DNA of 64,000 bases, taken from Rhizodiscina lignyota (Eukaryota). A program made the translations under genes and the position numbers. Every line of letters starts with the position of its first letter. The first letter of the stretch is position 1. The notes beneath the pieces are model-generated. The model saw only the letters and a list, made by a program, of their open reading frames with translations, had not been told where the DNA came from and ran no database searches. Positions 15,141 to 34,218 of the stretch are shown one piece after another. The DNA is taken from NCBI GenBank assembly GCA_010015805.1, contig ML978124.1:1736001-1800000 (forward strand), written 5' to 3'.

Positions 15141-17643
15141 CTTGCTAGAGATGCTGGATGATGGAGAATTGAAGGGCAGGACATACTTGTTGAGTTCGAC
15201 ATGATGGGCAGCAGTAGAATTCCTGAGTGGTTCGAATGGCAAAGTCGAGGAATGTGCTGGTGCGCGTCCGGCTAGTTGGGCGAAGGCTGGCGTGCGGCCG
15301 AGGCCGCTTCGAATAATGTGAGCGAGAGGCAGCTCCCAGGACCCGGCTGAAGGAGTTTGTTGATCGAGTTGTGCGCGAAAAGGGAGGGTAGAGATGTTCG
15401 CGCTGCGTGAGGTGGTGCGGATGTTTGGTGAGGGAGAGAGGGAGTGTGTGGTAGCTATTGGGTGAGTCGGGGCGGGTGAGAGTGGCCTTGGTGCGCTTCG
15501 GTGCCTCAAACCCAATCACAGGCGGTGACCTGCCAAGATTTGATCCTCGTAATCGAAACGTATTGGCCCACTCCGCGCGCTTTCGTGGCCGTGCCTCGCT
15601 TTCGCCCGCACGCAGGAGGCTCGCAGTCGCTGCAATTGTCGTCGGCGAGCAATTCACAGAGGTGAGGAGAAGAGGCCAGGCAAGGTGGAGATGGCGGCAC
15701 TGCAGGGCAGCTGGCGATCGCGTACGTTTCCTTCTTTTTGCCGTCAACGCATGCAGCGAATGGAGGCACGTCACCTACTGCACAACACCAGCGCCAGCCT
15801 TAACATTATTGCTATTGAGGCTGTGCTGCTGCCCTTCCTATTGGCGAGGATATTCATAGCATACGCTCCCCGATGGGTGCCGGTGGCACATGGAACGCAA
15901 ACACCATACCATCTCGAAAGTAACGCTCCTACGCGACACAATCATCGTCGCATTCAATTCAACTTGCCAATTCCTCGTTCGTGATCACCTGCTCTCGACA
16001 TCCGGGTTTCCGGCTTCCATGGATCGTTCCAAGGTTCTTCTTCACACTAAAGCCTGATGGGCCGAAATGAGGCCCGTATCCTCAGAACATGCAACCCCTG
16101 TCACAGCAACCCAAAAACCTTCCTGTTCAACGGGTAAAATTGACTATGATTTCATACAGCTCAATCTCGTATTTAAAACGCTCGATTGACGCTTGCTGGA
16201 ACGCCAGTGCCCGACTCGTTCAGTGAAATCGCCATCACGAGGTAGCATCGGTGCTTAGCAACGATGTAGGAGCTCACCGTAGCTCACGGTGCACCACCCG
16301 CTTACAATTGATGACACGGCTGGCCCTTCAGACTGTCTTGCCTCGTGCCCATCGGTGCGAAATCTACAGGATCAGTATTCCGAGTCTCCATTTGAGGCGG
16401 CCAGCGCCTCATCCTTTGCTCCTTTCTCCCTTCGCCTTCAGAATCGCCGACACTATCGAGTGTGGCAAGTCGCAGCACACTCGAGCATGTCTCGGCCTTC
16501 CAATATTTCGCCCTTTATCGATTTGCGCGTGCCTTTCGCGTCATGGCGCCGCTGCCGAGGCACGCTATCGCCTCCTTTAGAAAGAATAAGCCTTCTCTCG
16601 CGTGCTGGAAAGCCATTCCGTCAGCCACATCGGTTCCGGATTTTCAGCCTCACGATCTTCAGCTCCCCTTGGGACCGTAATGTAACTAGCCTCAAGGAGG
16701 GTATTGCCCACTTACTTGAGAGATATTTTGAGCACACTGTTCTTTACATCCTGTTCATAGAGGAATGAGACAAGAATACTCCCTACATGCATACCTTGAG
16801 AAGGCTTTTCTGCAATTGTTCTTTGTTAACCTTCTCATTCTCGTCATCTGTAGCCCCAAGGGGGCTGCATGTATGCAGTCTTCATCACTCTCACACGATA
16901 ATCTTAGTTCATCTCTATACTGGTATTCTCTAATTTGAAACGCAGTTGCATATTCCAGTTTATCATCTGAAATTTCCTTCTCGGTCTTTGATCTTATTTG
17001 GAGTTTAGACCTCTCCGTCAACCGCAATCCAGCCTTCCAAACTACGCCAGATCCTCGCCACCTGGTTTCGGAGTTCTACCTTTCGGTCCTTGGGGTTCAG
17101 CGGAAGGCTTGACTGTGGCCTGGAAAAGAACACAATTGACAAGGCGCAAGTTAAGGCTGAGGTCACAAATTTTGATGTACATCGCGGCCTCCGAAAATGA
17201 TGAACAGAGAGCTGAACTGAGAACTCGAGAGTATTTGAACCAACCCAACGTACTGAGTAAAAGCAGACTTATGCCCATAGAACGGCATCATATCCACTAA
17301 TATCTATGACGCCGCCCTCTCGTCGTACGTCAAAACCCACCTATGGCCTCTCGGTGAATCTCAAATACCTCCGATTTAATAGAGCTCGAAATATGCTCTT
17401 CAATCGCTTCGCCATTCATCATACTATGGATATAATGAAGTCCAATGAATTCAAAATACTTCCGCTCTGCGCCGTTTTGGGGAAATCTCCCTGGCTGCTC
17501 TTATCATTTAGTGTACTTATTGGAGCCTTGTAGGAGGCCAAGTCGACCTGTTCCTCTTGACATGAGGCTGGCTGCTCACATATGCCGAAACATACGAAAT
17601 TGGATAGCCAACATCTTTTTACGATGCTCTTCTAATTATACCA

Positions 17644-18913
17644 TTACAGAGACTGGAAAATTCTACGCCTTTGTTCCCGACTGTAATCAGAGGACCCAGC
17701 GTTCTCCCACGATCCATAATCAATCATATCCATATTCGTATGCGTAACGGGTACGACCTGCAAATCTTGGATCTGTCTCAATTTATCCATTGCTTCTCTC
17801 CGTCTCTGTTCGCCGAGAGCCTGCGTAGAATTCTGCCACCTTTTTCCGATTATTTCAGGCGCCTCTTCACAGTACTTGTCTAGTGCTGCGATCACCAGGC
17901 GGAAGTTCTGAGATGTGTGATCCTCGAACTGGCACATACCCGCATGGTCCGCATCGAGTCCAGACCTCTCCGTGTCATCGAAATCAGGCGCTGCACTCTC
18001 CTTCTCTACTACGTAGTCCTTTTTGTACCCAAGCTCTGTCTTTCTTTGCTCCCAGAAAAAGAATATCGAGAAATGCTTCATAAGAGGAATGAAATGATCG
18101 GTTATGTTCTGCAGCGTTTCGGACTCCGATTCAAGGGCTTTAACCAGGTTTGAGTCGAATTGGCCGACCAATTTAGGGACGGCAGCTGACGCTATTTTCT
18201 GAAGCATAGCTAGCTGCTGCGCTTTCGATGTACCTCGATGCGGTGTTCCGAAGAAGAGGATGCCGTATGTGCAGGTGAATATCGAGTGGAGATTCTCCAA
18301 TCTTGCGGATTGTCTGCTACTGGAATATGCAAGAGCCTGGAAAGAAACATTGTTAGCTAGTTGGTTATTACTATCTAGGCAGAGATGTCGTTCGTCGCAA
18401 GGACACGGTCATGTCGCCCCACGCACCCTTTTGACGATGATCCCTCCCAGGGAGTGGCATAGGAAGATGATGGGCTTGTCCTGCCTTCGCTCGAGCTAGA
18501 GTCTGCGATAAGTATATCCCTTATCAGCTCTGAGGGGAGATGGGCATACCCTTCGGTCGGCACATAGCTGAGCGACAAGAGTCTGAGCATGATGGTGGAT
18601 GCGGTCCGATGATGGCATCCTCCCCTTAAAGGACGAGATACTGGCGTTGTAACCCCATACCAATACTCGAGCATTGGTGATGTACCTGGGCAGGAAGTCG
18701 GGATGGTGCAACCAGCAAACGTCGTTCTTCTTCGAGGTCCACGTTTTGAGCGCCTCTCCGGTTAGGCCGTGTACAGCAACGATGCTTGTGAAGAAATATT
18801 AGCAACTCCACCAGTTTGCAGTAGCATGAGAGTACTCACTCTACATCTGGATTGGAATCTGCAGGTCTGTACACCTCTCTGATACCGAAAATTGAATCGT
18901 CTGATGGAGCCAT
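17644..18913 (-). CDS. Stand-alone SesB-like / DUF676-type alpha/beta hydrolase with intact catalytic motifs
   Basis: Four exons (introns 18785-18839, 18496-18549, 18337-18426). Spliced protein: MAPSDDSIFG..D|IVAVHGL..CWLHHPDFLP..ARVLVWGYNA..PIIFLCHSLGGIIVKR|ALAY..GILFFGTPHRG..FFFWE..ADHAGMCQF. The nucleophile Ser codon is at 18451-18453. Confidence 0.88.
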
Positions 18914-19484
18914 GAAAGATGTAGTCTAGTAAGCTCAAGAACAAACCAAGTCGAAAAGCACAATTGGACTCGGAGAGACAGCAATACTGGGACGTTATCA
19001 ACTGATTTATTTTCTCAGCCTTGCGTGAAGGAAGCGCCCTCTTTTGCATATTTGAAGTGGCTGTGCCCAAAGGCAACAACAGTCCATTCTCCAATCACGA
19101 CCATCTGGATGAAGCATTCAAGGCTAGAAAGGAAACAGGTCGAGAGCCTGCCAATAGCGTTGAAGCAAACTAGCACGTTTCGAGTTCCACGGGACAGAAA
19201 GCGTAGTGCATCAACGTTGCGACCAAACTGTGCTGTGCCGCATCCCTCATTTCCGCGCTAAAGCTCGTCGTCCTTGGTCACTGTTTGCAATATGATAGGA
19301 CTGTGTTTGAGCTGCAGGTTTCTGTATCCCCTGACTTAATTCACAAAACATGCTAGTAATTATCGCATGTTTCCCATCTATTCAAAGTTTGCCAAGATGG
19401 TTTCTGATTGCGCCATGAGCGGCCTCCGAAGGCCAGGAGGGCGACTTGCTCTATTCTATGATAGTCCGCTCTGCATTAACGACA

Positions 19485-21323
19485 TTACTTTCTAACAGCG
19501 GCTCTGCAGCCATCAGCACTTGAAAGCACGAGTGTCAGCCGCTGTCTTTCCGTCCCCACGGGCTCTACAAGTTCTCCTTCGGCTATTTCTATGGTTGGGA
19601 AGGCTTGAAGGAGCCGTACAACTGTATAATAGACCTCCATGAGCGCAAAATCTTCACCAAGGCATTGCCTCGGTCCTCCACTGAACGGGAAATAGGCCCA
19701 ACCAACGTCCTTCATTTCGCCTGTTTCCCAGCGCTCAGGTCGGAAGATATCCGCATCAGATCCGTAAATATTTTTCTTCCTCGAGTTTACGTATTGTGAG
19801 TAGACCACCAGTTCCCCCTTCCTGACTAGCATTGGGCTGTTTCCATCGGGACCGCCCCCTGTAGGAAGGATTGTGGTTTTCACAGCTTCGCGGTTGTTTA
19901 GCGGTACTGGAGGATAGAGGCGAAGACCTGAGAGGCACTCAAGACGTTAGCAAGATTTTGGCAGCAAAGACACTCAACGGCGCATACTCTCTTTTACCAC
20001 GCAGATAAGGAATGGCATCTTTCTGAGCTGCTCACGAGTGGGATGCTGGGATCCCTTCATTACAGATGCGACCTCCTTGCGCAGACGTACCAATGCTTGT
20101 GGGTGCCGAACAAGCAACCGACTAATTACAGTATGTTAGCTGCCTACCAGTGAGAATCAACTGTATCGACTTACAAGGTCCATGACAGACAACATGCCGT
20201 GGTATCCCTCCCGGCTAACAGTACGTTAAGCAGCTGGTCTCGAAGAGCAGTATCGGATGCCGACTCTTTTGCAACCTGGTCAATGAACCAGGACGAGGGG
20301 TGCGTTGAAGACTCTTTCTCCTCCAACTTTCTTGTCTTGATGTACCGTTCGACGAATCGATGAACTCGGGCGCACGCATTTCGAAAATCTCGAGGGTTAT
20401 AGAAAAAATGGAACGGAGCAATACGGAAGCGCTTTGCCAGGCCCTCTTGAGCCATGTTGAAACTCTCTGCGAACTCTCTGTTCTCGGCATCCTGATCAAT
20501 ACCAGCTCTGAGGCTGTATACGGACTGGCCAAAGAGTAGTGCCGTGGTCGTATCTAGTGTGAGGTTGAAAAAGAGTGGTTGAAGGTCGACAGTGCCATCG
20601 ACGGGCATGCAGGCAATGAGGTTGTCAACATGCTCTGCGAAGTGGTCCAGATTTTGATACTGGATCCGCATGAACTGTTTCCGCAGGAGTTCTCTGGAGT
20701 GCTTCCATGCAGCACCTTCCTGGGTGAAAATTCCATTACCGAGTAGTGGAGCGAAAACGTCAGGTCGGCAGCCGAATCCATAATCTAGCATGGAACCATT
20801 AATTCTACATGTTCAGGAGCTTGGGGGAACGGCAGTAGACTCTCTGATACCGCCAATTCCGTGGTCGCTGATCGTCTGGACTTGCCTTTGAAGTTCGTCG
20901 CCAGTATCGCTTCGACATTTCTTGGATGGAGAATGTGGAAAGCGCGAGGGCCAACCAACAGATACTGATAAAGGTTGTTGCGAGGCTCGTAATCCTTCGC
21001 GATGGAGCATAGGAAAGCTAGGAGGCGACCGTCGGCATTGGACTCCCAAAGCTCTTTTATCCTATCGATACCGAAAGGCCATCGCTTCGGTAACTCAGGA
21101 GGCAGCTGGCATCCATGCTGTCGACCGAAGGCGCGATCAGCCTGATCAACATTAGTGAGAGGTTTTCGAAGTACCGGAGGGTTCTGACTCGATAATCAAG
21201 ATATTGTTTGGAGGCTACAAGAATGATACGCCCCGCGAGGCATATCAAGATAACGAGAAGCAAAGTACGAGCGGCTGAGATTTCAAATATTGCTTGTTTG
21301 TATGTAGCCCAAAAATCTGTCAT
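19485..21323 (-). CDS. Cytochrome P450, CYP52-like (alkane/fatty-acid hydroxylase type)
   Basis: N-terminal TM anchor, [24 protein letters not shown]-helix [13 protein letters not shown], ExxR ([13 protein letters not shown]), FRPERW and heme motif [12 protein letters not shown]. Four introns, including a GC-AG intron at 20785-20885. Confidence 0.92.
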
Positions 21324-21780
21324 GACTTGAGTAGACGAGATGCTCTGAGGCAAGTTGAAAGTTTGGCGCCGAAGAAATTAAGGTAGCGCGGGAGTTCAAT
21401 TTTGAGGTTCCCACCCACCCCATGCCCCTGCCTCGTTTGACCGACATGGTCGCTGTGCTGTGCCGTAAACTTGTGTGATTGAACATGTCATTCGTCGGCA
21501 AGTTTTACAGTCTTCCGTGGTGTGCGGCTTGTGCGCCTTCGTCCCATTTTTGGCATGCGAACCCCTGTTCTCGATGGTCGCAATCAATGGTACACTAATC
21601 AACGGGCCGTTCCTCGAGCGCCAGCGTATCCTTAGTACAAAAGCCTCGACACGCATGCGCCATCTCGTCGTCCACTCCATGTTTTTCTTGTAGCCTTGTC
21701 CTGCCCGCAGCTGTAATCTGCCTTTGAAATGTTCCCTGAGAGAGTTCCGTCCATGGATCCTAGCCTTCTTCGGCGCAAGA

Positions 21781-24700
21781 ATGCCATCGGGTTTATTGTG
21801 CCTTCACAATGTAGATCAGGCCGAAGTATCAACTCGGCAGGACGACTTGGTCGAGTAAGGCTGTTTATCTTGTCTCACCATCGGCATTAAGTCTAATAAC
21901 GCGATAGTATCGTTGCTGTTCACAGCTTGAATGAAGACTCTGTTGAGGCCTGGACTGACGATGCCACTGGAATCAACTGGCTCCAAGACCTCCTGCCGAA
22001 GCAACTCAAAATCGCGAGGATTTTGACTTATGGCTACGATGCCTCGTATGAAACTTTCTTCGGAGCGCATGCTGCTTCAAACATCCAGAGGATCGCTCAT
22101 TCGTTCCTTCAGCAACTACAAGCAGATCGTCGTCTGGAAAAGGCACAGAAGCGCCCGATCATCTTTATTTGCCACGGTCTTGGTGGAGTCCTTGTTAAGA
22201 AGACCTTGATTTTTTCTTCGAGTCGAACAGCGAGCCATGTGCACCACCTGTGGAGTATCTTCTTATCGACATTCGCTATCTTATTTTTTGGAACGCCTCA
22301 CGACCGTGAGGACAAGTCGAACTGGTTCGTCCTTGAAGGTCATTCAGATGCCAAGCAACAACATGACCCTCGAAGCTATACATCATTTTCACATGATCTT
22401 AACTGCTTTCATGCTATCACAGACCAATTTCCGGCGATAGACAAGCGCTTCCGCATGTTCTTTTTCTGGGAAGAGATACGAACACAGACTACACGGTACG
22501 GTAGCAGAGCATATTTCATTGTCGATCAAACATCGGCTGTTCCGGAGATGGACAACATTGAGAAATCTGGAATCCATGCGACGCATTCTGGAATGATTAA
22601 ATTCAATTCCATCGATTCATCGAGCTATCGAACCGTGCTTGATGCCCTTACGAGATATTGTGAAGCTGCACCACGTTTCATTCCTCGCCAATGGGACGAT
22701 GCACTCCAGACGCTGGCACAAATTCGAGCGAGCGAGGCATACGGTCTCGGTGGAGTGGAGTTTGACGTACGAGTTGAACGTCCTCACAGAAGCCTTGAGA
22801 TTGACTTACAAAGAACGACAAATCGATATTTTTACCCCCCACAGGAGCCAACGCCCGGCTTCGTTGGGCGAGAAGAGATGATTTTAGCTCTCCATAGCGC
22901 TCTCTTCCTGCAGAATAGTGGGGGAAGTGCTCGTGGTCTTAGTAGGCGGAAGTCGTTCATTGTATACGGTATGGGAGGGTCTGGAAAGACTGAATTTTGC
23001 TCGAAATTCGCACAAGACTACAGAGATGAGTAAGTTTCTATGCATACGAGCACGAAATATGAGCACCTCTGACAGGTGGCATAGGTACTTTGCCGTTTTT
23101 ACGGTCAGGGCAGCGTCAGCCGAGACAATCAAAGAGTCTTACGCCATGATTGGAAAACTTGGCGGTCTTGAAGCTACTGAGAGCGCGGGAAGGCATTGGC
23201 TCTCTCAATTACGTGAACCGTGGCTACTTATTATTGATAATGCCGACGATCCTTCCTGCGAGCTGAGCAGTATATTTCCACAAGCTGATAGCGCACATAT
23301 CTTAGTGACAACTCGGAATCCAGAGTTTCGTCGCGATGGAACCGTTGGTAGCCTGGAGCTACAAGGTCTCAAAGAAGAGGATGCCCTCCAGCTATTGCTC
23401 ACAAGAGCGGACATATCGAGACCATGGGATGTCTCAACGAGGACTGCTGGCAATTTGATCACGAAGTCGCTCGGGTATCTTGCACTTGCGCTTATCCATG
23501 CTGGAAACTGCATATATCGCCGTATATGTAACTTGGGAGACTTCCTCACGTTACATTCGACATATAGAGCTCGACTACAACAACAGAGAGTATCGACGTT
23601 GGAGTCGCTTGATGACGAGGACATGGTCAAAGTCATTTACTCCACCTTCGATGTGTCTATGGAATTCCTAAGTAAGAAACGAACAGTTACCAGCCAGGAC
23701 GCGTCGGAGCTGCTGAAAATCGTCGGCTTCTACCATTTCGAGCGAATTCCGGTCGACATATTCACTCGTGCTGTGGTCAATCGAGAAAACAGCAAGCAAA
23801 GTACTTCGAGACTATCTATTACATCTAGGCTTTTGGGAGCTATCATCGGTCGATTTGAACCACCCAAGACATTGCCAGGTTTCCTGAAGGACACTGACGG
23901 TCGGCTAAATAAATTTAGAGTCAATCGTGCCATAAGAGAACTGCATTCTTTGTCATTAATCACGTATGATGGGAAAGACGACACTTTTTCCTTACATCCT
24001 TTGGTTCATGCCTGGGCTCGGGACGTCCTGCCAAGCCAGGAAAGGAAAATCTGGGCATATGTTGGCCTGAATACTCTTCTCGAATCCGTTTTGCTTCCTT
24101 CCGGGAAGGTCAGTGAATCAGACGGCGATTTCAACAGAGACATCTTACCACATCTCGACTCATGTCTTCAGGATTCCGGCCATCCACTGCCGGAAACTGC
24201 GATTACTACTGCAGGGTTACAGATGCGCCTCGCCAAGTTCTTCCAACCAACAACGCTTCTCATACTTCGAGATCAGACTCTGAACGCCGCCAAATGTGGG
24301 TACGTCTTCGCGGAACGAGGGGAGTTTGGGAAGGGAGCCATTCACCTCCGCATCGTCAAGGACACCCTAATCACGACGCTCGGTCGGGAGCACGAGAAGA
24401 CCATGACCGCGATGTTGGGATTAGCAGGGGTTTGCTGGGGTCTAGGCAGATTAGAGGAGGCGATTGAGCTTCAAAAAACGGTAGTAGAGATACGCTCGCG
24501 ACGTTGTGGACCCACGCACGAAGAGACACTAATGGCCATGGACCGGTTAGGAAGTTCGTACTGGCTGCACGGAAGATATCACGAAGCCCTTCAGCTCCAA
24601 GAAGCCACAACCGAAGGAATGAAAGCGACGCTCGGAATGGAGGACGCCAAAACGCTTGCAGCCCTGGATAATCTGGCTGTCACCCTGGGCTCATGGCATC

Positions 24701-25413
24701 GTTTTGAAGAAAGCCTACGCATTCATCGTAGAGTTCTCAAGTCTCGACAAGCTTCTCTAGGTCAGTCGCATGTCGATACACTTACAACAATGAACAACGT
24801 GGCTATGGCTTTGCTCGATCTCGGGCATTTAGATGAAGCAAAATCAATGATGACCGACGTACACTCCCAGCGACGAGCCCAGCTGGGCAAGGAGCATCCG
24901 TGGACATTGTGGGCGCTTTGTAATCTTGCGAAAGTGCACATCGAGATGGGATATCTTAGCGAAGCCGAGAAAATGCTTACCTGGGGAGTTGAAGCGGGAG
25001 AGAGGAGCTTAGGTAAAGATCATCTGGGCGTCCTTATGGGTAACGGCCAGCTCGCCCGTATATACGCACGGCAAGGACGACTGGAGGAGTCGGAGAAGCT
25101 CTCCGTATTGACCATTGGGCTCATCGAGAAGTCTCGTGGGATTGCTCATCCGGACACTGTCTACGGATTGTGGAAGCTGGCACAGCTATATGAGCTCAGA
25201 GATGAGCGGGAGATCGCGGTTCAGACTTGCCAGCTTGCTTTAGAGAGAGCCGACATGCGTATCACAAGGAGGCATCCTCTGGCCAAGAAGATAGAAGAAC
25301 TGCTCGGGCGTCTCGATGGTCAAAACAGAGACTTCGCAGAAACTGCAGAAGCTGGGGATGGGCAGAACGCATCAACCGCTCGGGCTCTCATTCCCCGCGG
25401 GCAGACCTGGTGA
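21781..25413 (+). CDS. Fungal NLR: degenerate SesB-like hydrolase domain + NB-ARC + TPR repeats
   Basis: ATG 21781, introns 21855-21907 and 23030-23084. N-domain D|IVAVHSL..ARILTYGYDA..PIIFICHGLGG..FFGTPH. P-loop VYGMGGSGKT, Walker B WLLIIDNADD, ILVTTRN, FSLHPLVHAW. C-terminal kinesin-light-chain-type TPRs (LGxxHxxTLxxMxNLA). Confidence 0.92.
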
Positions 25414-25879: not shown

Positions 25880-28168
25880 TTAAGCCAACGCGATAAGGAC
25901 TCGTTCAGGGCCTGCCTGCTGCCAAGCCAATTCTTGAATCTCCCCAATATTAATTCTGTATGCCAGGTCGCCTTGTCTTTCAATCTGGAGTACTGTCAAT
26001 ATAGCTTCAAAATGAAGTATTTGCCGCCTTCTGATTTGGATGAACTCCCATGTGCCGCAGTCATATCTGGTCTCTTCGGAGCGTTGCCGTATCATGGGAC
26101 CCATGGTTCCGATGGGAGTCCCAGAGCTGTTCCGGATCTCGTATTCGTATTTATCTGCGAACTTGGTATCACTTGGTTGAGCGGTCTTCCTGGCGATACT
26201 GAGAACTGCTCTTTCTGCCCAGAATAAGAGGATATGGCCGCCAGGTGTACGTGCTAAAGCGTTTTGGGAAAGACTGGGAAGCTCAGTTTTGACGTCTTGA
26301 AGTTGCACGCGGTCGTCGCCGTCCGTCGCCGGGACAGTAGGATTAACTGCCCTAATAGCCACACCTGTGTCTTCATTGGCGTGGACATAAACATCTATTG
26401 TGGCAGCCTCGTTGATTTCATCCAGGTGCTCGTTCGTAACTGACACCCAAGCTTCTCCAATCCAGCCCATCCACGACCAGCTGGGAAATTCGACTTGTTT
26501 GTCCAACTCGGTCATTGGCAACGTGCTTTTGGCTGACCTTCTGACTTGCCCAGATCTAGTGCTCCAAGCTAAGGCATCATTCAGTCTGCTCCGCGGAAGG
26601 CCCCATAGCCACTGTACTCCGAATACTCTTGTCATTTCCTGCAGTAGTCCTTCAAAGGCGTCATAAACATCGCCCGCGAAAGTGAAGTGTCGACGAGTAA
26701 AGCGCTGAACAGCCAGTCTGTATCTTCTCCAGAAGCGCTCGTGTGCGTCCTGCGGCTCCGTTTGATGCCGAGCAACTTCCAGTGATAGCTCCATGGCGGC
26801 GCTGTGGAATGGAAATAGTGTCGGTGGGCCATGCTCCATGTACGATTCCTCGCAGAATGTTGTCGTGTTGCATGAGAAGTAGACTTGCTCCGCGGTGAAC
26901 GTAATAACTCTGCGGGACAAGTATCTTTCCTGAAAGGTCCAGCCGCGCGTGTTCCATCTTGTTTCGTCGAGATAATGCACCGGAAACATGCCATTAACTG
27001 GGTTGATCGTCGTCATCAAAGACATGGCAGGTTTTCCCTCCTTTGCCTCCAGAACTGGGACCTCTGCTTGTTCGAACCAGCGGGTGCCCGGTCGCAGGCC
27101 AGGTAGTCCTGATTCTGCGCTTTCACCGGCGGCTGCCACGACGGTAGCAGAAGCACATCCGTAAATAGCGCCCATCGAACGAAGCTGAGTTTTCTTGTCG
27201 ATATCGTCATCCTGGATGATGCAAAGAGCATCAACCCATATGTATCGCAAGCCAAGCTGTCTAGTGAGGTCAATGGCATCCATAATTGTGCGTGAGGCCG
27301 GACGATCTCTCAGAGTCCCAACATCTCCCAGAGCAGTGAGGTTTCCTTTGCGGAGCGTGAGCTTTTGATTAGTCCCCCAAACATAGCTCAGAGCAATATA
27401 TTTCATGTCACCAAGATACACGTGTTTGAAGGATCGAATAGCCATCTCTTGCACGTCGATAAAGCGGATCAAGTCTGCCACAGCTTCCGCACCCATTCCT
27501 CTAGCAGAGTCTTTAGTGGAATTGCAAACAGCTCCATGATCAACCTCGCAAAGTCGAAGCCACTGTCGAAGCCACCCACAGTCGACGGTCAAAGGACGTC
27601 GGCGTCCGCCGAATATTGTCGGCTCCACTCCAGGACGTGTGTCGAGAAAGTCTACGGAGACATCTGCCTGGGTAGAGCCTGGACTGCAAGCTTGGAAACA
27701 GTATTGCAAGTATTGTTTGTGAAGATCCTCCGAATCTTGTACCTTGCCCTGCTCGTTTGTGATGAGGCTCAGTCTACAAACAATGCGAAACCGGTCACGA
27801 TCCGCTTCCTCCGGCGGGTAGAAGACCCCGTAGAAGGTATTTTCTGCTTGCACACTGATCTCGAGGCCGCTCATGCTCCGGCCCTCTTCCGTAAATGGCC
27901 CACGTTGACTGAGTATCTTCCATATCAGGTTGCACATACCGCAGGTCTCTCGTCGTGCCTTTATGCTGCCGAGCAAGCCCAGACTCAACGTCTTATGGCG
28001 ATGGTCATCCTGGGGGACAAGTTGAGGAAACCAGTGCTCGTAGGTCGTTTGATCATTTTTGCGGATGGCTTGAATATCTGACAGAGTAGGACATCTCAAG
28101 GTCTCAAATGGAATGAGTTGACAGAGTTCGCACAAGGCGACAGGTTTGGCTCGGCTTCTAAACGTCAT
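25880..28168 (-). CDS. HET-domain (heterokaryon incompatibility, TOL-like) protein
   Basis: Intronless. Motifs YIALSYVWG, TIMDAI..LGLRYIWVDALCIIQDD, MGAIYGCA, WNTRGWTFQERYLSRR and FPSWSWMGW. N-terminal CxxC pairs. Confidence 0.92.
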   Translation of the reverse strand: MTFRSRAKPVALCELCQLIPFETLRCPTLSDIQAIRKNDQTTYEHWFPQLVPQDDHRHKTLSLGLLGSIKARRETCGMCNLIWKILSQRGPFTEEGRSMSGLEISVQAENTFYGVFYPPEEADRDRFRIVCRLSLITNEQGKVQDSEDLHKQYLQYCFQACSPGSTQADVSVDFLDTRPGVEPTIFGGRRRPLTVDCGWLRQWLRLCEVDHGAVCNSTKDSARGMGAEAVADLIRFIDVQEMAIRSFKHVYLGDMKYIALSYVWGTNQKLTLRKGNLTALGDVGTLRDRPASRTIMDAIDLTRQLGLRYIWVDALCIIQDDDIDKKTQLRSMGAIYGCASATVVAAAGESAESGLPGLRPGTRWFEQAEVPVLEAKEGKPAMSLMTTINPVNGMFPVHYLDETRWNTRGWTFQERYLSRRVITFTAEQVYFSCNTTTFCEESYMEHGPPTLFPFHSAAMELSLEVARHQTEPQDAHERFWRRYRLAVQRFTRRHFTFAGDVYDAFEGLLQEMTRVFGVQWLWGLPRSRLNDALAWSTRSGQVRRSAKSTLPMTELDKQVEFPSWSWMGWIGEAWVSVTNEHLDEINEAATIDVYVHANEDTGVAIRAVNPTVPATDGDDRVQLQDVKTELPSLSQNALARTPGGHILLFWAERAVLSIARKTAQPSDTKFADKYEYEIRNSSGTPIGTMGPMIRQRSEETRYDCGTWEFIQIRRRQILHFEAILTVLQIERQGDLAYRINIGEIQELAWQQAGPERVLIALA

Positions 28169-28843
28169 CGATAATCGGGCGGACCAAGACACCTGTAATG
28201 GAACCTCGGTACGCCAAATTGAGTTCCAGCTTTACATCTGCCTAAAATTTTGCGACCTATTGGTATTATTGGAGGTCGGAAGTTGGAAGGCGGAAATAGA
28301 AGTGATATGAAAGCGTGAACAGGTCCTGAAGGCAACGAGGCAATCGGTTAGAAGGTCGTCCTTGACACCCAATGATCATGCCCCTGGCAGTTGAACAACA
28401 CGAGGCCCCAGTCCGCAGCAACCTATCGATCTCTTGTAGGGCAAAGTGACCGATGGAGGCGCAAACGGTCTGCACATGGTTCGACACTTCGAGTCTTACG
28501 AAAAAGGGCATAAACGCACCGATGTTAAGACGAATTTATGCATCATGGCCTGAAGCTAGTTTCCTGTCGTGTCACCTGCAGCACGGAACGGACCGATGAG
28601 GCTCTGATGGACCAATAATGTGAGGCTTCGGTTTCCACCCTGGTAAATAGGACCAACTGTTGACACTTGGCATGCGTTGGAAGGCTGAGAGGGCGGTCAT
28701 CCATCAGTAAATTATGCGAATTCAAGATATCGTGAATAGCTACGAGGGCCTTTATCAGCGAACAAGTACACGTGATGTTATGCAGGCCGACGCAATGACA
28801 TGCTGCTCTACCTACTCATGAATCTGAAGTTTATACTCACTCA

Positions 28844-29893
28844 TCAGAGTAATCCAGGAATAATAGCCTTCCTCTTCCCCACCTTCTCCCTCCCAAATTT
28901 CTCTACATACCAATCCCACCCGGACAGCGCCCTCGGCAACATCGTCGCGATCTCATTCACCACGAACGTTCTCGCTGGCGCGCACGCCCATCCTCCCACA
29001 ATCCAGAATCCGCACCACTCGATCCACTCGCACAGATAATGCGGATACAGCACGTAGTAAAATAGCCCGTTCTTCGGTAGCATGTACACCTTTTCCACGT
29101 TCTCGACCGGCTTGCCCTCCTCCTTCGCCTTCTTTTCTGCCCGTCTTTGAGCGGCCCGCCGGATTTCGCGCAGGTCATCGTCATGGTACATGTTTGCGAG
29201 AAGGCCCCAGCCCCAGATAACTATGCCAGCTTCGATAGTGTAGAGGCGTCCGGACCAGTCGTTGATTGTGGTAGGCCCATAGCCGGCGAGCCAGCCGCCG
29301 AGTGACAGAGCGTTGAGGAGTTGGAAGGAGATGGCGAGAGCCCAGACCAGAGGATGGATGGGGGACATGGAGGGGTTAAGGACGAGGGGGGAGAGGATGG
29401 CGCGGTAGAGGTAGTGGATTGTCTGTTGGTTTTAGCAGTTGTTAGTTTACGATTCATCATTACGAAGGAGATGCGTCAATCTGCGTGCGCGCGGAGAGCC
29501 TTGCACAAATGCAACGGGAGAAATGTAAAATATCAGAGACGTACAAACATGCCCGCCATAGTCCAATTCGCCCATGGAAGACTCTCAACTCCCAGCTGCT
29601 TCGGTAGACTGTACATGCAGTAAAGTAATGTGAGAAAGCCAGGCGCTTCCATCGTCACCCATGCCCATTTGCCGGGGATGTTGAAGCGCGACTCGATGGA
29701 TGTCTTGCCCATTGGGTAAAACGTCGTTACCCATTGGACTACCGTAACCTGCACGGCATAAATTAGACATTTTGCGGCTGAGAGGGCAAGGGAAGAATGA
29801 GTGAGGGCGTACAACCGGGAATAATTGCCACACCGTGAAGATGAGCTCCCAGTTCTCGCGCGACGGCGGGAGCCAGTTTTGGATTATCGCCAT
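28844..29893 (-). CDS. 3-oxo-5-alpha-steroid 4-dehydrogenase / steroid 5-alpha-reductase-like membrane enzyme
   Basis: PMGKTS..NIPGKWAWVTMEAPG, IHYLYRA, YHDDDLREIR, YMLPKNGLFYYVLYPHYLCEWIEWCG, RKAIIPGLL. Two introns (about 29749-29813 and 29423-29544). Confidence 0.88.
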
Positions 29894-30433
29894 ATTCTAA
29901 GAGACGCAGAATTCTTGAAGAAAAATACACGTCTGAGAGGTTGTGGGATGTAAAAAGACGCGTTGCGGCGTTAATGAGGTTGGAACAAAGTTGAGGCCGT
30001 TGTCAAACATGAATGGGGTGGATGCGTGGATCCATGTCGTCATGAAAGCAAGGCAAGGCAATGCGATTGAAGCGATTGGAAACAGTGGAAACAGTTACAC
30101 CAAGAGTAAGCATCTACTATCACAAAATTTCAACAGACTTCAAGCATTTAATCAATATCGTTTCAAGGCTGAGAAAGTACTTCAATACTAGTAATTAAGG
30201 AGCCACCCCCGCCCATCCCAGAGACCAGAGACCCAAGCTACCCACTCCGTAGCTAATCCAAGCGAAAGTCTCTCATGTGCTCATCATATCATACCAATAT
30301 GCCCGACACCTCATTCCTCGCCGTAAGCACCAGTCCAGAGCAACGCCAGTTGAAATGCCACAAACACGATCCCGCGATGCCGTAGCCAGAAGAAGAAGTC
30401 TAAAAGCACTCTACAACGCCACGCATAAATGCA

Positions 30434-33289: not shown

Positions 33290-34218
33290 TGTTATGGCCT
33301 GTCTATTGTCTCTTCATTCGAGTGCTCTGCATGCAATAGAACCGTGAATGACTCCTCGGCCAGGCCGCTACTGAGTGCGACGCAACGATTGTGGAAGCCT
33401 CGCAAGTGAACGAGCGGCAGTTCAGTGAAACGAGGCAACAAGTGCTGACGCTTCAATATGCGCATATAAATGAGAAAGTAGAGCGCTTCAAGCTGCGACA
33501 ACGAAGAGAAAGAAGAAATCTAGAAAGTACAAGAGCCCCGGCGAAACGATGTGCGCGAGACAGAAGCGGATGATGTGTGAATGAAGAGGGAAGAGTGGAG
33601 ATGGCTGGTTCGAAGAGTCGCAGACGGCGACCTAAAGCGGTCCCTCTGCGGCGGGAGGCGGGACGAGCTGGCGACGATCCTTCGATCTTCCAGATTGCTG
33701 GAGAGCTTGCTTACAGAGCAACCCAGCTTCGTGAAGATTCGATAATCACATGAAATACGGAAGTGAGGGTTTTTCGTACGTTAACGAATCATTTAAATAA
33801 TGCATGTAATAGACGGCTTGAGCTGATGACGGAGGATTCGTTGTCAGTGCCAGGCAACGCTTGGCACTCTCTGAGCGGCAGGGCAGGGTAGGATAGGTGG
33901 ATTTCCGCTTTCAGCGATGTGAAAAGCTCCGTACCTTTCAGAGACATCATCGAAAGCCACGGGGATCATTAGTGTGAATTTCTTATGAGCCACTCTTGTG
34001 GTCGGAATGTGTAACTTCCCCTTTTAAATAAACTGGAGAAACTTTGCCAAGAGTTAAGACGGTGGAGCGGAAATATCCGCCGGTGGCTGGTCTTGAATCT
34101 AGAAATTTTTGAGTGGGACATCAATCCTCTACTGCAGGACCAAACCCTCCACAATGGCAAATTGCTCACGATAATGGTTCTTTTCAACACTGCCTAGCAT
34201 ATTAGTTTCTCTATTGCA

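What the first reader, a model, noticed from the sequence alone, without database searches (positions are those of the whole stretch)
17644..25413. Candidate undescribed NLR module: active hydrolase + CYP52-like P450 + NLR carrying a catalytically dead paralog of the same hydrolase
Seen: three tightly packed genes, hydrolase(-) and P450(-) divergent from NB-ARC/TPR NLR(+), with 457 bp between the P450 and NLR ATGs. After splicing, the stand-alone hydrolase and the NLR N-domain align end to end: QLxADRRLExxQxxPIIFxCHxLGGxxVK, SSSR, SIF, ILFFGTPH, FFFWE, YCExAP..W....Q.L...R..EA. Both have an intron at the same D|IVAVH position. The stand-alone copy keeps HGL and CHSLGG; the NLR copy has HSL and CHGLGG. 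Established: SesB-like hydrolases are fungal NLR effector domains, and known two-component fungal NLR/effector pairs (NWD2/HET-S, sigma and PP motif systems) couple through amyloid motifs. No such motif is apparent here. Inference: the activated NLR recruits the active enzyme through a pseudo-enzyme/enzyme interaction (loosely like cFLIP/caspase-8 or EDS1-family lipase-like heterodimers). The co-located P450 would make or modify the lipid substrate or product, giving an NLR-triggered lipid-chemistry defence or signalling cassette.
Basis: partly seen in the sequence, partly recalled or inferred. Interest (0 to 1): 0.88.

Follow-up and report, generated by a model that had tools for sequence, protein, structure and literature searches.

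The report
Conserved fungal NLR–lipase–P450 gene trio
A fungal immune-receptor-like gene whose front end is an inactive copy of a lipase-like enzyme sits beside the active copy and a cytochrome P450, and the same three genes are neighbours in fungi of five classes, which points to an old, unstudied working unit.

Summary
The window comes from Rhizodiscina lignyota, by 100%-identical database proteins. It carries three genes:
- a 4-exon DUF676/SesB-like hydrolase with CHSLGG;
- a 5-exon P450;
- a divergently transcribed STAND/TPR NLR whose N-terminal 300 residues are 39% identical to the hydrolase (E 2e-65) but read CHGLGG.

Both copies share a phase-2 intron in D|IVAVH.

**Ser loss is ancient.** Among the 120 best long relatives, 108 have Gly at the nucleophile position. 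Only the 10 most distant have Ser.

**The two domains are sister clades.** A 246-sequence tree gives an NLR-borne clade (132 leaves, no Ser) sister to a stand-alone clade (42 leaves, 40 Ser).

**The neighbourhood is conserved.**
- Locus tags place NLR and hydrolase 1-3 genes apart in 7 of 7 comparable genomes.
- NLR and P450 carry consecutive tags in 12 of 14.
- Six gene models fuse P450 to hydrolase.
- Five classes of Pezizomycotina are covered.

So the module is real and old. The proposed enzyme/pseudo-enzyme docking remains an inference: complex prediction gave only weak support (0.40, control 0.00). The dead domain keeps the putative catalytic His and Glu, so ligand sensing is a serious rival. 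I found no description in the papers searched.

The parts
17644..18913 (-). Stand-alone DUF676/SesB-like alpha/beta-hydrolase gene. Exons: 18913-18840, 18784-18550, 18495-18427, 18336-17644. The deposited model P0121 instead splices out of the last exon to a short 3' exon that begins near 17423.
   Evidence: Hand model with GT..AG introns. Identical to P0121 except the C-terminus. Pfam DUF676 28.2 bits against a cut-off of 20.3. AlphaFold model pLDDT 85.3 with an alpha/beta-hydrolase fold.
18451..18453 (-). Codon of Ser118, the nucleophile in L-C-H-S-L-G-G of the hydrolase.
   Evidence: It lies between strand 112-117 and helix 119-132 of the model, which is the nucleophile elbow. Invariant in alignment A2 of 40 stand-alone homologues. 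Ser in 40 of 42 leaves of the stand-alone clade.
19485..21323 (-). Cytochrome P450 gene, 525 aa. Exons: 21323-21189, 21141-20886, 20784-20175, 20121-19988, 19927-19485. Motifs AGRDTT, ESLR and [10 protein letters not shown] are intact.
   Evidence: Hand model; the second intron is GC..AG. Product identical to P0241. Pfam p450. Orthologues are 60-82% identical over exon 3, and sources name them alkane hydroxylase / P450 52A13.
21324..21780 (.). 457-bp divergent intergenic region between the P450 ATG and the NLR ATG. Candidate shared promoter.
   Evidence: Coordinates of the two ATGs. Promoter function is inferred, not tested.
21781..25413 (+). NLR gene, 1174 aa, equal to P0001. Exons: 21781-21854, 21908-23029, 23085-25413.
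   Evidence: 100% hit to P0001.
21781..22748 (+). N-terminal hydrolase-like domain of the NLR without the nucleophile Ser (about residues 1-305, intron 21855-21907 included).
   Evidence: 39% identical to the hydrolase, E 2e-65. AlphaFold model pLDDT 92.8 with an alpha/beta-hydrolase fold. No Ser at the elbow.
22176..22178 (+). Codon of Gly115 in I-C-H-G-L-G-G, at the place of the nucleophile Ser.
   Evidence: Invariant in alignment A1 of 62 orthologues. Gly in 108 of 120 listed long hits. Gly in 93% of the 132-leaf NLR clade, which has no Ser at all.
22968..22991 (+). Walker A / P-loop G-M-G-G-S-G-K-T of the STAND NTPase.
   Evidence: Read from the sequence. G379, G381, G382, G384 and K385 are nearly invariant in A1.
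24394..25218 (+). TPR sensor region, with 42-residue units.
   Evidence: Pfam TPR_12 136.5 bits and TPR_10 109.1 bits. Internal unit identity is a mean of 22% and a maximum of 33%. Orthologue identity is a mean of 46.9%.
19228..19240 (+). 13-mer CTGTGCTGTGCCG, about 320 bp upstream of the hydrolase ATG. One of only two copies in the window.
   Evidence: 2 matches with up to 1 mismatch in 64 kb; 0.09 expected; 0 of 100 shuffles reached 2. The pattern was chosen post hoc.
21453..21465 (+). Second copy of the same 13-mer, about 130 bp upstream of the P450 ATG, in the same orientation relative to both minus-strand genes.

Best explanation
**Shown.** This is one copy of an old three-gene module present in five classes of Pezizomycotina. 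Its parts are:
- (i) a free, catalytically equipped DUF676/SesB-like serine hydrolase;
- (ii) a strongly conserved P450 of the fatty-acid/alkane-hydroxylase kind, lying just upstream of the hydrolase on the same strand;
- (iii) a divergently transcribed STAND-NTPase/TPR receptor whose N-terminal domain is the sister paralogue of the free hydrolase.

That N-terminal domain lost the nucleophile Ser (to Gly) at the origin of its clade and has kept the rest of the fold ever since.

**Inferred.** The ancestral receptor carried an active hydrolase domain, as the Ser-keeping outgroup NLRs do. After duplication, catalysis was left to the free copy. The receptor-borne copy became a regulatory pseudo-enzyme that couples receptor activation to the free enzyme by paralogue pairing. 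This would resemble a receptor-tethered 'prozyme', or the lipase-like heterodimers of the plant EDS1 family. Oligomerisation of the NTPase would gather and switch on several hydrolase molecules. The P450 would oxidise the acyl chain that the hydrolase releases or needs. The output would be a local change of membrane lipid, or a lipid signal.
For: **Paralogy.** 39% identity, E 2e-65, and a shared phase-2 intron.

**Ser loss is clade-wide.** 108 Gly, 10 Ser and 2 gaps among the 120 listed long hits. G115 is invariant in 62 orthologues.

**Tree.** FastTree, 246 sequences, 275 columns.
- NLR clade: 132 leaves, 0 Ser, support 0.988.
- Stand-alone clade: 42 leaves, 40 Ser, support 0.938.
- The two together: 0.977, against 72 Ser-keeping outgroup leaves, 44 of them long NLRs.
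- IQ-TREE -fast on 72 of the 246 recovers the same three groups, with SH-aLRT 99.1, 68.9 and 98.8.

**Synteny from locus tags.**
- NLR and hydrolase are within 1-3 tags in 7 of 7 tag series present in both lists: Xylaria longipes g4859/g4861, Scytalidium g8230/g8228, Letrouitia 406/404, Penicillium angulare 1735/1737, Lecanora helva 5565/5562, Pseudogymnoascus 09320/09321, Bathelium 2432/2434.
- NLR and P450 have consecutive tags in 12 of 14 series.
- The full trio is seen in Scytalidium (8228/8229/8230) and Letrouitia (404/405/406).
- By hand count, 43 of the 120 listed NLR hits have the same 'longest contig' length as a listed hydrolase or P450. These include contigs of 12.7, 18.4, 31.3 and 32.7 kb.
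- Six deposited gene models run P450 into hydrolase in the window's order.
- The classes were checked by taxonomy look-up.

**Purifying selection on the dead domain.** H116 99%, T-P-H 97-99%, W-E 96-98%, S-A 97-98% and the His of the D-H motif 97%.

**Complex prediction of NLR 1-310 with the hydrolase.** Weak support: score 0.40 (runs 0.39, 0.40, 0.42), best of 3 controls 0.00, partner pLDDT 81, runs agreeing in at least 98% of contacts. The tool's calibration for its mark is 51 of 78 solved complexes and 2 of 108 mismatched pairs. At scores of 0.60 or under, only 5 of the 78 solved complexes reached it, together with all 4 mismatches that passed.

**Shared upstream element.** A 13-mer upstream of both minus-strand genes, with 2 copies in 64 kb.
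Against: **No direct evidence of binding, activity or phenotype.**
- By the tool's own calibration, a complex score in this range is more often wrong than right. The alignments were not used. Close paralogues can also score from fold likeness alone.
- The dead domain keeps its putative His and Glu at 96-97%. A pure docking module would not need them.

**Features that do not fit a typical immune receptor.**
- The P450 is far better conserved than the other two genes: 60-82% against 30-61% (NLR) and 43-65% (hydrolase). It may have a general metabolic role independent of the receptor.
- The TPR region is as conserved as the rest of the protein and has no highly similar internal repeats. This is unlike the fast-evolving fungal NLRs tied to non-self recognition.

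**Limits and exceptions in the synteny evidence.**
- In Aspergillus hiratsukae the listed NLR and P450 tags are far apart (005580 against 007026).
- In Verruconis gallopava a second, HET-fused NLR (PV09_06055) is not beside the listed P450 (PV09_07816).
- Only the best 120 of 231, 349 and 1106 hits were visible, so absences could not be counted.
- No fungal genome DNA other than the window could be read, so gene orientation elsewhere is known only from the six fused models.
Confidence: 0.45

Rival explanations
1. Ligand-sensing pseudo-enzyme. The Ser-less domain keeps an intact pocket and binds, without turning over, a lipid made or trimmed by the neighbouring hydrolase and P450. The receptor would then be gated by a metabolite of its own cluster, or would report on flux through it. 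This is comparable to alpha/beta-hydrolase-fold receptors such as GID1 and D14/KAI2, or to small-molecule binding by the EDS1 family (comparison recalled, not tested).
For: - Only the nucleophile is gone. The His of the D-H motif (97%), the Glu of W-E (96%), the H before the elbow (99%) and T-P-H (97-99%) remain in 132 clade members.
- KAI2-type receptors are among the Foldseek hits of both models, although at generic TM scores of 0.38-0.42.
- The conserved, non-hypervariable TPRs fit a conserved, possibly endogenous cue.
- Tight linkage with two lipid-type enzymes.
Against: - The oxyanion-loop glycines have relaxed in the NLR clade: column 33 is Gly in only 68%, and column 36 is Gly-to-Glu in 75%. 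The pocket is therefore not untouched.
- No coordinates were available, so pocket geometry could not be inspected.
- No ligand is known.
Confidence: 0.25
2. Integrated decoy or guard. The dead domain mimics the free hydrolase, which is the real target of a competitor's or parasite's effector. Binding of the effector to the mimic would trigger the receptor, as in plant NLRs with integrated domains.
For: - The domain is a paralogue of a neighbouring, active, conserved enzyme, and is itself inactive.
- Integrated decoys have been proposed for Sordariales NLRs (PMC12258605, passages seen).
Against: - The domain sits at the N-terminal position, where fungal NLRs carry effector or signalling domains. 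The TPRs already supply a sensor.
- One-to-one conservation over five classes, without signs of diversification, is unlike an arms-race interface.
- Loss of the Ser would prevent capture of covalent serine-hydrolase inhibitors.
Confidence: 0.12
3. The receptor's N-domain is a self-sufficient, non-catalytic effector (for example membrane binding). The hydrolase and P450 form an ordinary lipid or wax-assimilation gene pair that has stayed next door for regulatory reasons, such as a shared divergent promoter, with no protein-level coupling.
For: - The P450 is much more conserved than its neighbours, and sources name it as an alkane or fatty-acid hydroxylase.
- The divergent 457-bp promoter region could by itself hold the P450 and NLR together.
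- The complex prediction is only weak.
Against: - It does not explain why the neighbour is the sister paralogue of the receptor's own domain.
- It does not explain why Ser loss and the presence of the live copy go together across five classes (tags).
Confidence: 0.12

Closest known systems
SesB-like (SBL) alpha/beta-hydrolase N-terminal domains of fungal NLRs (Dyrka et al. 2014, PMC4986451; Wojciechowski et al. 2022, PMC9815663; passages read)
   Same: The same domain family (DUF676 / SERAC1-like lipase fold) at the N-terminus of an NB-ARC-type/TPR receptor. [quoted passage not shown]
   Different: The passages I read treat the domain as a predicted lipase/esterase effector. The word 'catalytic' has 0 occurrences in both papers. 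Here a whole widespread clade lacks the nucleophile and is paired with a live paralogue and a P450.
Two- and three-gene NLR/effector clusters coupled by amyloid motifs: NWD2/HET-S, and the sigma and PP motif systems, including the sesA/sesB/het-eN locus (details of the latter recalled; the reviews PMC12881547 and PMC9815663 were read in passages)
   Same: A receptor gene sits next to the gene of the protein it is thought to control. Part of the receptor's N-terminus is homologous to part of the neighbour.
   Different: The shared element is not a 20-40-residue amyloid motif but the entire globular enzyme fold. The NLR starts directly with the fold, and the hydrolase C-terminus is not conserved. 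A P450 is a third conserved member.
Enzyme / dead-paralogue pairs: trypanosomatid 'prozymes', cFLIP-caspase-8, and ABHD5 as a Ser-less alpha/beta-hydrolase co-activator of ATGL (the ABHD5 abstract was seen; the rest is recalled)
   Same: A conserved, catalytically dead paralogue kept alongside the active enzyme. In ABHD5 the fold is likewise an alpha/beta-hydrolase without its Ser, and it regulates a lipase.
   Different: Here the dead copy is fused to a STAND NTPase receptor, and heteromer formation is unproven.
Plant EDS1-PAD4/SAG101 lipase-like heterodimers in NLR signalling (recalled)
   Same: Lipase-like folds whose catalysis is dispensable, pairing with a paralogue and working with NLRs.
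   Different: There is no sequence relationship beyond the superfamily fold. In plants the lipase-like proteins are separate from the NLRs and sense nucleotide-derived signals. No P450 is involved.

Membership tests
Fungal NLR (STAND NTPase with N-terminal domain and C-terminal repeats) | Central P-loop NTPase with Walker A and Walker B | tested here: met
   GMGGSGKT at residues 379-386 and LLIIDNADD downstream. The P-loop glycines and Lys are nearly invariant in 62 orthologues.
Fungal NLR (STAND NTPase with N-terminal domain and C-terminal repeats) | NOD recognised as NB-ARC by Pfam | tested here: inconclusive
   P0001 scores NB-ARC 14.0 bits against a cut-off of 23.5, and NACHT 22.6 against 26.7. 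Clade members P0102 and P0094 pass NB-ARC at 46.9 and 32.8 bits. DUF7779 is weak, at 19-22 bits against 27.
Fungal NLR (STAND NTPase with N-terminal domain and C-terminal repeats) | C-terminal superstructure-forming repeats | tested here: met
   TPR_12 136.5 bits and TPR_10 109.1 bits.
Hypervariable (allorecognition-type) fungal NLR | Highly similar internal repeats and little orthology between species | tested here: not met
   Eight 42-residue units are a mean of 22% and a maximum of 33% identical to one another. The TPR region is a mean of 46.9% identical across 61 orthologues. Full-length orthologues are found in five classes.
DUF676 / SesB-like alpha/beta-hydrolase | Profile match and alpha/beta-hydrolase fold | tested here: met
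   Hydrolase: DUF676 28.2 bits against a cut-off of 20.3. NLR N-domain: no DUF676 hit (Abhydrolase_6 E 0.095), but E 2e-65 to the hydrolase. Both models fold as alpha/beta-hydrolases, with Foldseek E 2.5e-08 and 2.7e-05 to esterases, lipases and thioesterases at TM 0.4-0.5. A profile search of PDB sequences gave 0 hits.
DUF676 / SesB-like alpha/beta-hydrolase | Nucleophile Ser in the sm-x-S-x-sm elbow | tested here: not met
   Met in the stand-alone gene (Ser118, invariant in A2). Not met in the NLR domain (Gly115, invariant in A1). The NLR domain is therefore a member by descent and fold, but not an active serine hydrolase.
DUF676 / SesB-like alpha/beta-hydrolase | Catalytic His and acid | tested here: inconclusive
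   Candidates are His257/His251 (D-H motif) and Glu222/Glu213 (W-E, after the strand at 216-222). They are conserved at 96-100% in all three clades. Their assignment to the triad rests on topology and conservation. No coordinates were available.
CYP52 family of P450s | P450 fold with heme-thiolate motif | tested here: met
   Pfam p450 hits on two exons, E 2.3e-19 and 4.7e-14. [16 protein letters not shown] and ESLR are present.
CYP52 family of P450s | More than 40% identity to a named CYP52 (nomenclature rule, recalled) | not tested
   No named CYP52 sequence was at hand. Only source-given names of orthologues are available: 'P450 52A13', 'n-alkane-inducible', 'alkane hydroxylase'. The nearest solved structures are CYP97A3, CYP46A1, CYP3A4, P450 BM3 and CYP4B1.
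Amyloid-motif NLR/effector pair (HET-S/NWD2, sigma, PP) | Short N-terminal motif on the NLR repeated at the C-terminus of the neighbour | tested here: not met
   The NLR enters the hydrolase fold after 24 residues. In the A2 consensus the hydrolase C-terminus has no conserved positions beyond the long helix. No amyloid-motif profile was run.
Enzyme / pseudo-enzyme paralogue pair | Dead paralogue under purifying selection, co-inherited with the live one | tested here: met
   together with the locus tags.
Enzyme / pseudo-enzyme paralogue pair | Physical heteromer | tested here: inconclusive
   Weak support only: score 0.40, best control 0.00, with the calibration counts given in the For line.

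The most novel reading that the evidence does not exclude
Filamentous ascomycetes possess an ancient, vertically inherited NLR signalling node. In it, a lipase-like pseudo-enzyme fused to the receptor senses or controls a lipid mediator, such as an omega-oxidised acyl chain, made by its two neighbour enzymes. This would be a fungal counterpart of the plant EDS1-family/NLR partnership. It would also be the first conserved fungal NLR with defined enzymatic partners, and possibly a regulator of lipid homeostasis or danger signalling rather than of allorecognition.
Probability: 0.2. Interest if true: 0.9.

Novelty: new variant of a known kind. Interest (0 to 1): 0.78.

Why it matters
Fungal NLRs are numerous, fast-evolving and almost all of unknown function, and SesB-like domains are assumed to be active lipase effectors.

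This finding changes that picture in three ways.
- One widespread SesB-like/TPR receptor lineage is a conserved orthologue group rather than a fast-evolving family.
- Its 'effector' domain is catalytically dead.
- It has stayed linked to the live paralogue and a P450 across five classes.

That gives a concrete, genetically tractable three-gene system. By the source names, it is present in Penicillium, Aspergillus fischeri and Chaetomium globosum. It can be used to ask what a fungal NLR does and how it talks to its effector without amyloid motifs. It also cautions against counting all SesB-like NLR domains as enzymes.

Tried and rejected
**Genome and neighbour data that could not be obtained**
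- Whole genome of the window: none is held. Paralogue counts in this genome could not be made.
- Metagenome scan with the P450 as query: one distant P450 locus (24% identity), of no use for synteny.
- The listing of cluster members, asked for accession-order evidence of adjacency in JGI-tagged genomes: the database is switched off.
- Earlier findings of the scan: not open.

**Expression**
- No RNA holder was listed, only one contig-level run of unrecorded kind, shown as '?'. Read laying was therefore not used. Introns, including the GC..AG one, and the hydrolase 3' end are unconfirmed by RNA.

**Phylogeny**
It was replaced by -fast with SH-aLRT.

**Pfam and gene models**
- Pfam on single exons of the hydrolase gave nothing. 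The whole protein was needed.
- My first NLR acceptor site (23076) was rejected in favour of 23085.

**Ideas rejected**
- A conserved Cys two residues before the elbow as a substitute nucleophile in the NLR domain. It is equally conserved (96-97%) in the Ser-bearing stand-alone clade.
- The HET-domain gene downstream of the NLR as a fourth member. Two relatives have a HET domain fused after the TPRs, but it is only generically similar to the window's HET protein (31% over 88 residues).

**Left undone**
- A mirror-tree or partial-Mantel test of co-evolution. Relatedness alone would produce a signal.

**Literature**
- Searches and passages read turned up no mention of Ser loss in SesB-like NLR domains or of a P450 neighbour.
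- 'NB-ARC' + 'cytochrome P450' + 'DUF676' returned 0 papers.
- Supplementary tables of PMC9815663 (N-terminus annotation, neighbour lists) and of PMC4986451 were not opened and could hold relevant rows.

Full report
**What is in the window**

The region holds three intron-bearing fungal genes. I built their models by hand from the sequence and checked them in scripts.

- **Hydrolase (- strand).** Four exons: 18913-18840, 18784-18550, 18495-18427 and 18336-17644, with GT..AG introns of 55, 54 and 90 nt.
- **P450 (- strand).** Five exons: 21323-21189, 21141-20886, 20784-20175, 20121-19988 and 19927-19485. One intron is GC..AG. The 525-residue product is letter for letter the database protein P0241.
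- **NLR (+ strand).** Three exons: 21781-21854, 21908-23029 and 23085-25413. The product equals P0001, 1174 aa. My first acceptor choice added three residues and fits the orthologue consensus worse.

The 100%-identical database entries are named by their sources as proteins of Rhizodiscina lignyota, a Dothideomycete. The deposited hydrolase model (P0121, 327 aa) differs from my read-through model (356 aa) only at the extreme C-terminus, which is not conserved among homologues.

**The observation**

- BLASTP of the hydrolase against the NLR gives 113/288 identities (39%), 212 bits, E 2e-65.
- In both genes the first intron interrupts the Asp codon of D|IVAVH after its second base. The hydrolase has two more introns that the NLR lacks.
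- The hydrolase reads IVAVHGL, LCHSLGG and DADH. The NLR reads IVAVHSL, ICHGLGG and HATH.
- The P450 and NLR start codons are separated by 457 bp.
- Pfam finds DUF676 in the hydrolase (28.2 bits, cut-off 20.3), p450 in the middle gene, and strong TPR_12/TPR_10 in the NLR.
- The NLR's NTPase has clear Walker motifs but is below the Pfam thresholds for NB-ARC and NACHT in this protein. Related members pass NB-ARC.

**Is the Ser loss a quirk of this genome? No.**

A search with NLR exon 2 among longer proteins returned 231 significant hits, of which the best 120 were listed. After alignment to a family HMM, 108 have Gly at the nucleophile position and 2 have a gap there. Only the 10 lowest-scoring hits have Ser; these are more distant NLRs, such as the Histoplasma 'LipA and NB-ARC' proteins and the Pezizomycete proteins.

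In an alignment of 62 full-length orthologues (30-61% identical to the window's protein), H114, G115, G117 and G118 are invariant.

Among the 120 listed stand-alone homologues of the hydrolase, 39 have Ser and none has another residue. The other 81 are truncated models that lack that part. Ser118 is invariant in an alignment of 40 full-length ones.

**Relationship of the two domains**

I built a FastTree tree (LG+gamma) of 246 hydrolase-domain sequences over 275 columns. The sequences came from the three searches and from an index-free search of 1.84 billion representatives. Sequences with more than 40 gaps were dropped, as were P0001 and P0121, which duplicate my own models.

| Group | Leaves | Residue at the nucleophile position | FastTree support | SH-aLRT on 72 of 246 (IQ-TREE -fast) |
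|---|---|---|---|---|
| NLR-borne clade | 132 | no Ser (124 Gly) | 0.988 | 99.1 |
| Stand-alone clade | 42 | 40 Ser | 0.938 | 68.9 |
| The two together | 174 | – | 0.977 | 98.8 |
| Outgroup (44 are long NLRs) | 72 | Ser-keeping (68 of 72 Ser) | – | – |

(FastTree values; IQ-TREE values.)

So the neighbour gene is the sister paralogue of the receptor's own N-domain. The duplication predates the split of the classes listed below. The Ser was lost at the base of the receptor-borne clade. The direction of the duplication (domain escape from an NLR, or capture by one) is not settled, because the root is not known.

**Conservation of the neighbourhood**

No fungal genome DNA other than the window could be read, so I used the locus tags and contig lengths that the sources attach to the hits.

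*NLR and hydrolase.* All 7 tag series present in both lists are 1-3 tags apart:
- Xylaria longipes g4859/g4861
- Scytalidium lignicola g8230/g8228
- Letrouitia 000406/000404
- Penicillium angulare 001735/001737
- Lecanora helva 005565/005562
- Pseudogymnoascus V502 09320/09321
- Bathelium 002432/002434

*NLR and P450.* Consecutive tags in 12 of 14 shared series: Scytalidium, Ciborinia, Myotisia, Mollisiaceae, Cladophialophora chaetospira, Penicillium IBT 16267x, Emydomyces, Exophiala bonariae, Letrouitia, Squamulea, Alectoria and Bacidia.

The two exceptions are:
- Aspergillus hiratsukae (005580 against 007026);
- the HET-fused second NLR of Verruconis gallopava. Another V. gallopava NLR does lie on a contig of the same length as the P450's.

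*Further points.*
- In Scytalidium (8228/8229/8230) and Letrouitia (404/405/406) the P450 is demonstrably the middle gene.
- By hand count, 43 of the 120 listed NLR hits share their 'longest contig' length with a listed hydrolase or P450. These include contigs of only 12,682, 18,354, 31,277 and 32,654 bp.
- Six deposited gene models (Myotisia, Talaromyces atroroseus, Naviculisporaceae, Dirinaria and two Squamulea) run the P450 into the hydrolase domain. The heme motif comes first and the hydrolase domain last, which is the order and strand seen in the window.
- Taxonomy look-ups place these genomes in Dothideomycetes, Sordariomycetes, Leotiomycetes, Eurotiomycetes and Lecanoromycetes.

The limits of this evidence are that only the best 120 hits of each search were visible, and that genomes lacking a partner could not be counted.

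**What kind of receptor and what kind of dead domain**

The TPR region is as conserved among orthologues (mean 46.9%) as the NTPase (46.2%) and the N-domain (44.1%). Its eight 42-residue units are only 22% identical to each other on average, with a maximum of 33%. This is not the repeat-shuffling, hypervariable type described for allorecognition NLRs (PMC4986451, passages). It suggests a conserved cue.

Both hydrolase-type domains fold confidently as alpha/beta-hydrolases (pLDDT 85.3 and 92.8). Foldseek gives only generic resemblance to esterases, lipases, thioesterases, monoacylglycerol lipase and KAI2 (TM 0.4-0.5, 10-18% identity). A profile search of PDB sequences finds nothing.

In the receptor-borne clade, everything that is conserved family-wide survives except the nucleophile:
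- the His before the elbow, 99%;
- the two Gly after it, 99%;
- T-P-H, 97-99%;
- W-E, 96-98%;
- S-A, 97-98%;
- the His of the D-H motif, 97%.

By strand topology, the Glu of W-E and the His of D-H are the likely acid and base of the triad. This is an inference; no coordinates were available.

The oxyanion-loop glycines have relaxed. One is kept in only 68% of the clade. Another is replaced by Glu in 75%. The Asp before the His is mostly Thr. The Cys two residues before the elbow is equally conserved in the live clade, so it is not a replacement nucleophile.

**Mechanism**

*Shown.* An old, co-inherited trio in which the receptor carries a selectively maintained, Ser-less sister copy of the neighbouring enzyme.

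*Best inference (about 0.45).* Division of labour after duplication. The receptor-borne copy acts as a regulatory pseudo-enzyme that pairs with the free enzyme and so switches it on or concentrates it when the NTPase oligomerises. The P450 works on the same acyl chain.

The single complex prediction allowed gave weak support:
- score 0.40 (runs 0.39, 0.40, 0.42), best of three controls 0.00;
- partner pLDDT 81, and runs agreeing in at least 98% of contacts;
- by the tool's calibration, the mark was reached by 51 of 78 solved complexes and 2 of 108 mismatched pairs;
- at 0.60 or under, it was reached by only 5 of those 78 solved complexes and by all 4 mismatches that passed;
- the alignments were not used.

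This moves the odds only a little.

*Main rival (about 0.25).* The intact His/Glu pocket binds a lipid made by the neighbours, making the N-domain a second sensor.

*Weaker rivals.* An integrated-decoy reading, and a 'linked but independent' reading.

A 13-mer, CTGTGCTGTGCCG, occurs only twice in the 64-kb window. One copy is about 320 bp upstream of the hydrolase ATG and the other about 130 bp upstream of the P450 ATG, in the same orientation (0.09 expected, and 0 of 100 shuffles with 2). The pattern was picked post hoc, so this is only a lead for co-regulation.

**Comparison with what is known**

[quoted passage not shown] Clusters of an NLR with its effector gene are known where short amyloid motifs couple the two.

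In the passages I read, nothing mentions loss of the catalytic Ser or a P450 neighbour. These were from Dyrka 2014, Wojciechowski 2022, the 2025 Sordariales study, and the 2023 and 2025 reviews. Targeted full-text searches found no such paper. The supplements were not opened.

The nearest functional analogies are dead-paralogue regulators: ABHD5, whose abstract was seen, and prozymes and cFLIP, which are recalled. The plant EDS1-family lipase-like heterodimers are also close, and are likewise recalled.

I file it as a new variant of a known kind: an NLR/effector gene cluster that is coupled through a whole dead enzyme domain and includes a P450.

**Verdict**

- Observation: confirmed.
- Module hypothesis: strongly supported.
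- Docking mechanism and lipid chemistry: plausible but untested.
- Interest: 0.78.

Noticed in passing
window 25880-28231 (-): A HET-domain ORF (Pfam HET, E 1.3e-32) lies tail-to-tail 467 bp downstream of the NLR stop. Two relatives of the NLR (P0102 from Verruconis gallopava, and P0094) carry a HET domain fused after their TPRs. That HET domain is only generically similar to this one (31% over 88 residues).
   Followed up: partly
window 19228-19240 and 21453-21465 (+): Identical 13-mer CTGTGCTGTGCCG, found only at these two places in 64 kb. The copies lie upstream of the hydrolase and of the P450 respectively, in the same orientation. It is a candidate shared cis-element, but the pattern was chosen post hoc.
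   Followed up: partly
window 7744-11763 (+): Three successive ORFs with BTB/POZ domains (E 3e-13, 6.8e-09 and 6.1e-06) lie upstream of the cluster. This is a small tandem family.
   Followed up: no
window 20785-20885 (-): The second intron of the P450 uses a GC donor (GCAAGT...TAG, 101 nt). The spliced product equals the deposited protein, but no RNA data were available to confirm the intron.
   Followed up: partly
window 17400-17760 (-): The 3' end of the hydrolase gene is ambiguous. The deposited model splices to a short exon encoding its last 7 residues, which begins near 17423. Read-through instead ends at 17644. Homologues are not conserved here.
   Followed up: partly
proteins P0126 and P0148: The Seiridium cardinale and Rosellinia necatrix homologues of the hydrolase (352 and 341 aa, no P450 domain) are named 'putative cytochrome P450' by their source. 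The name was probably carried over from fused P450-hydrolase gene models.
   Followed up: no
window 28844-36456: The flanking genes look ordinary: a steroid 5-alpha-reductase-like ORF, a Tcp11 homologue (E 1.8e-110) and Mpp10 (E 1.1e-99).
   Followed up: no
window 4001-6000: G+C falls to 35% in this 2-kb bin, against 47-60% elsewhere in the window.
   Followed up: no
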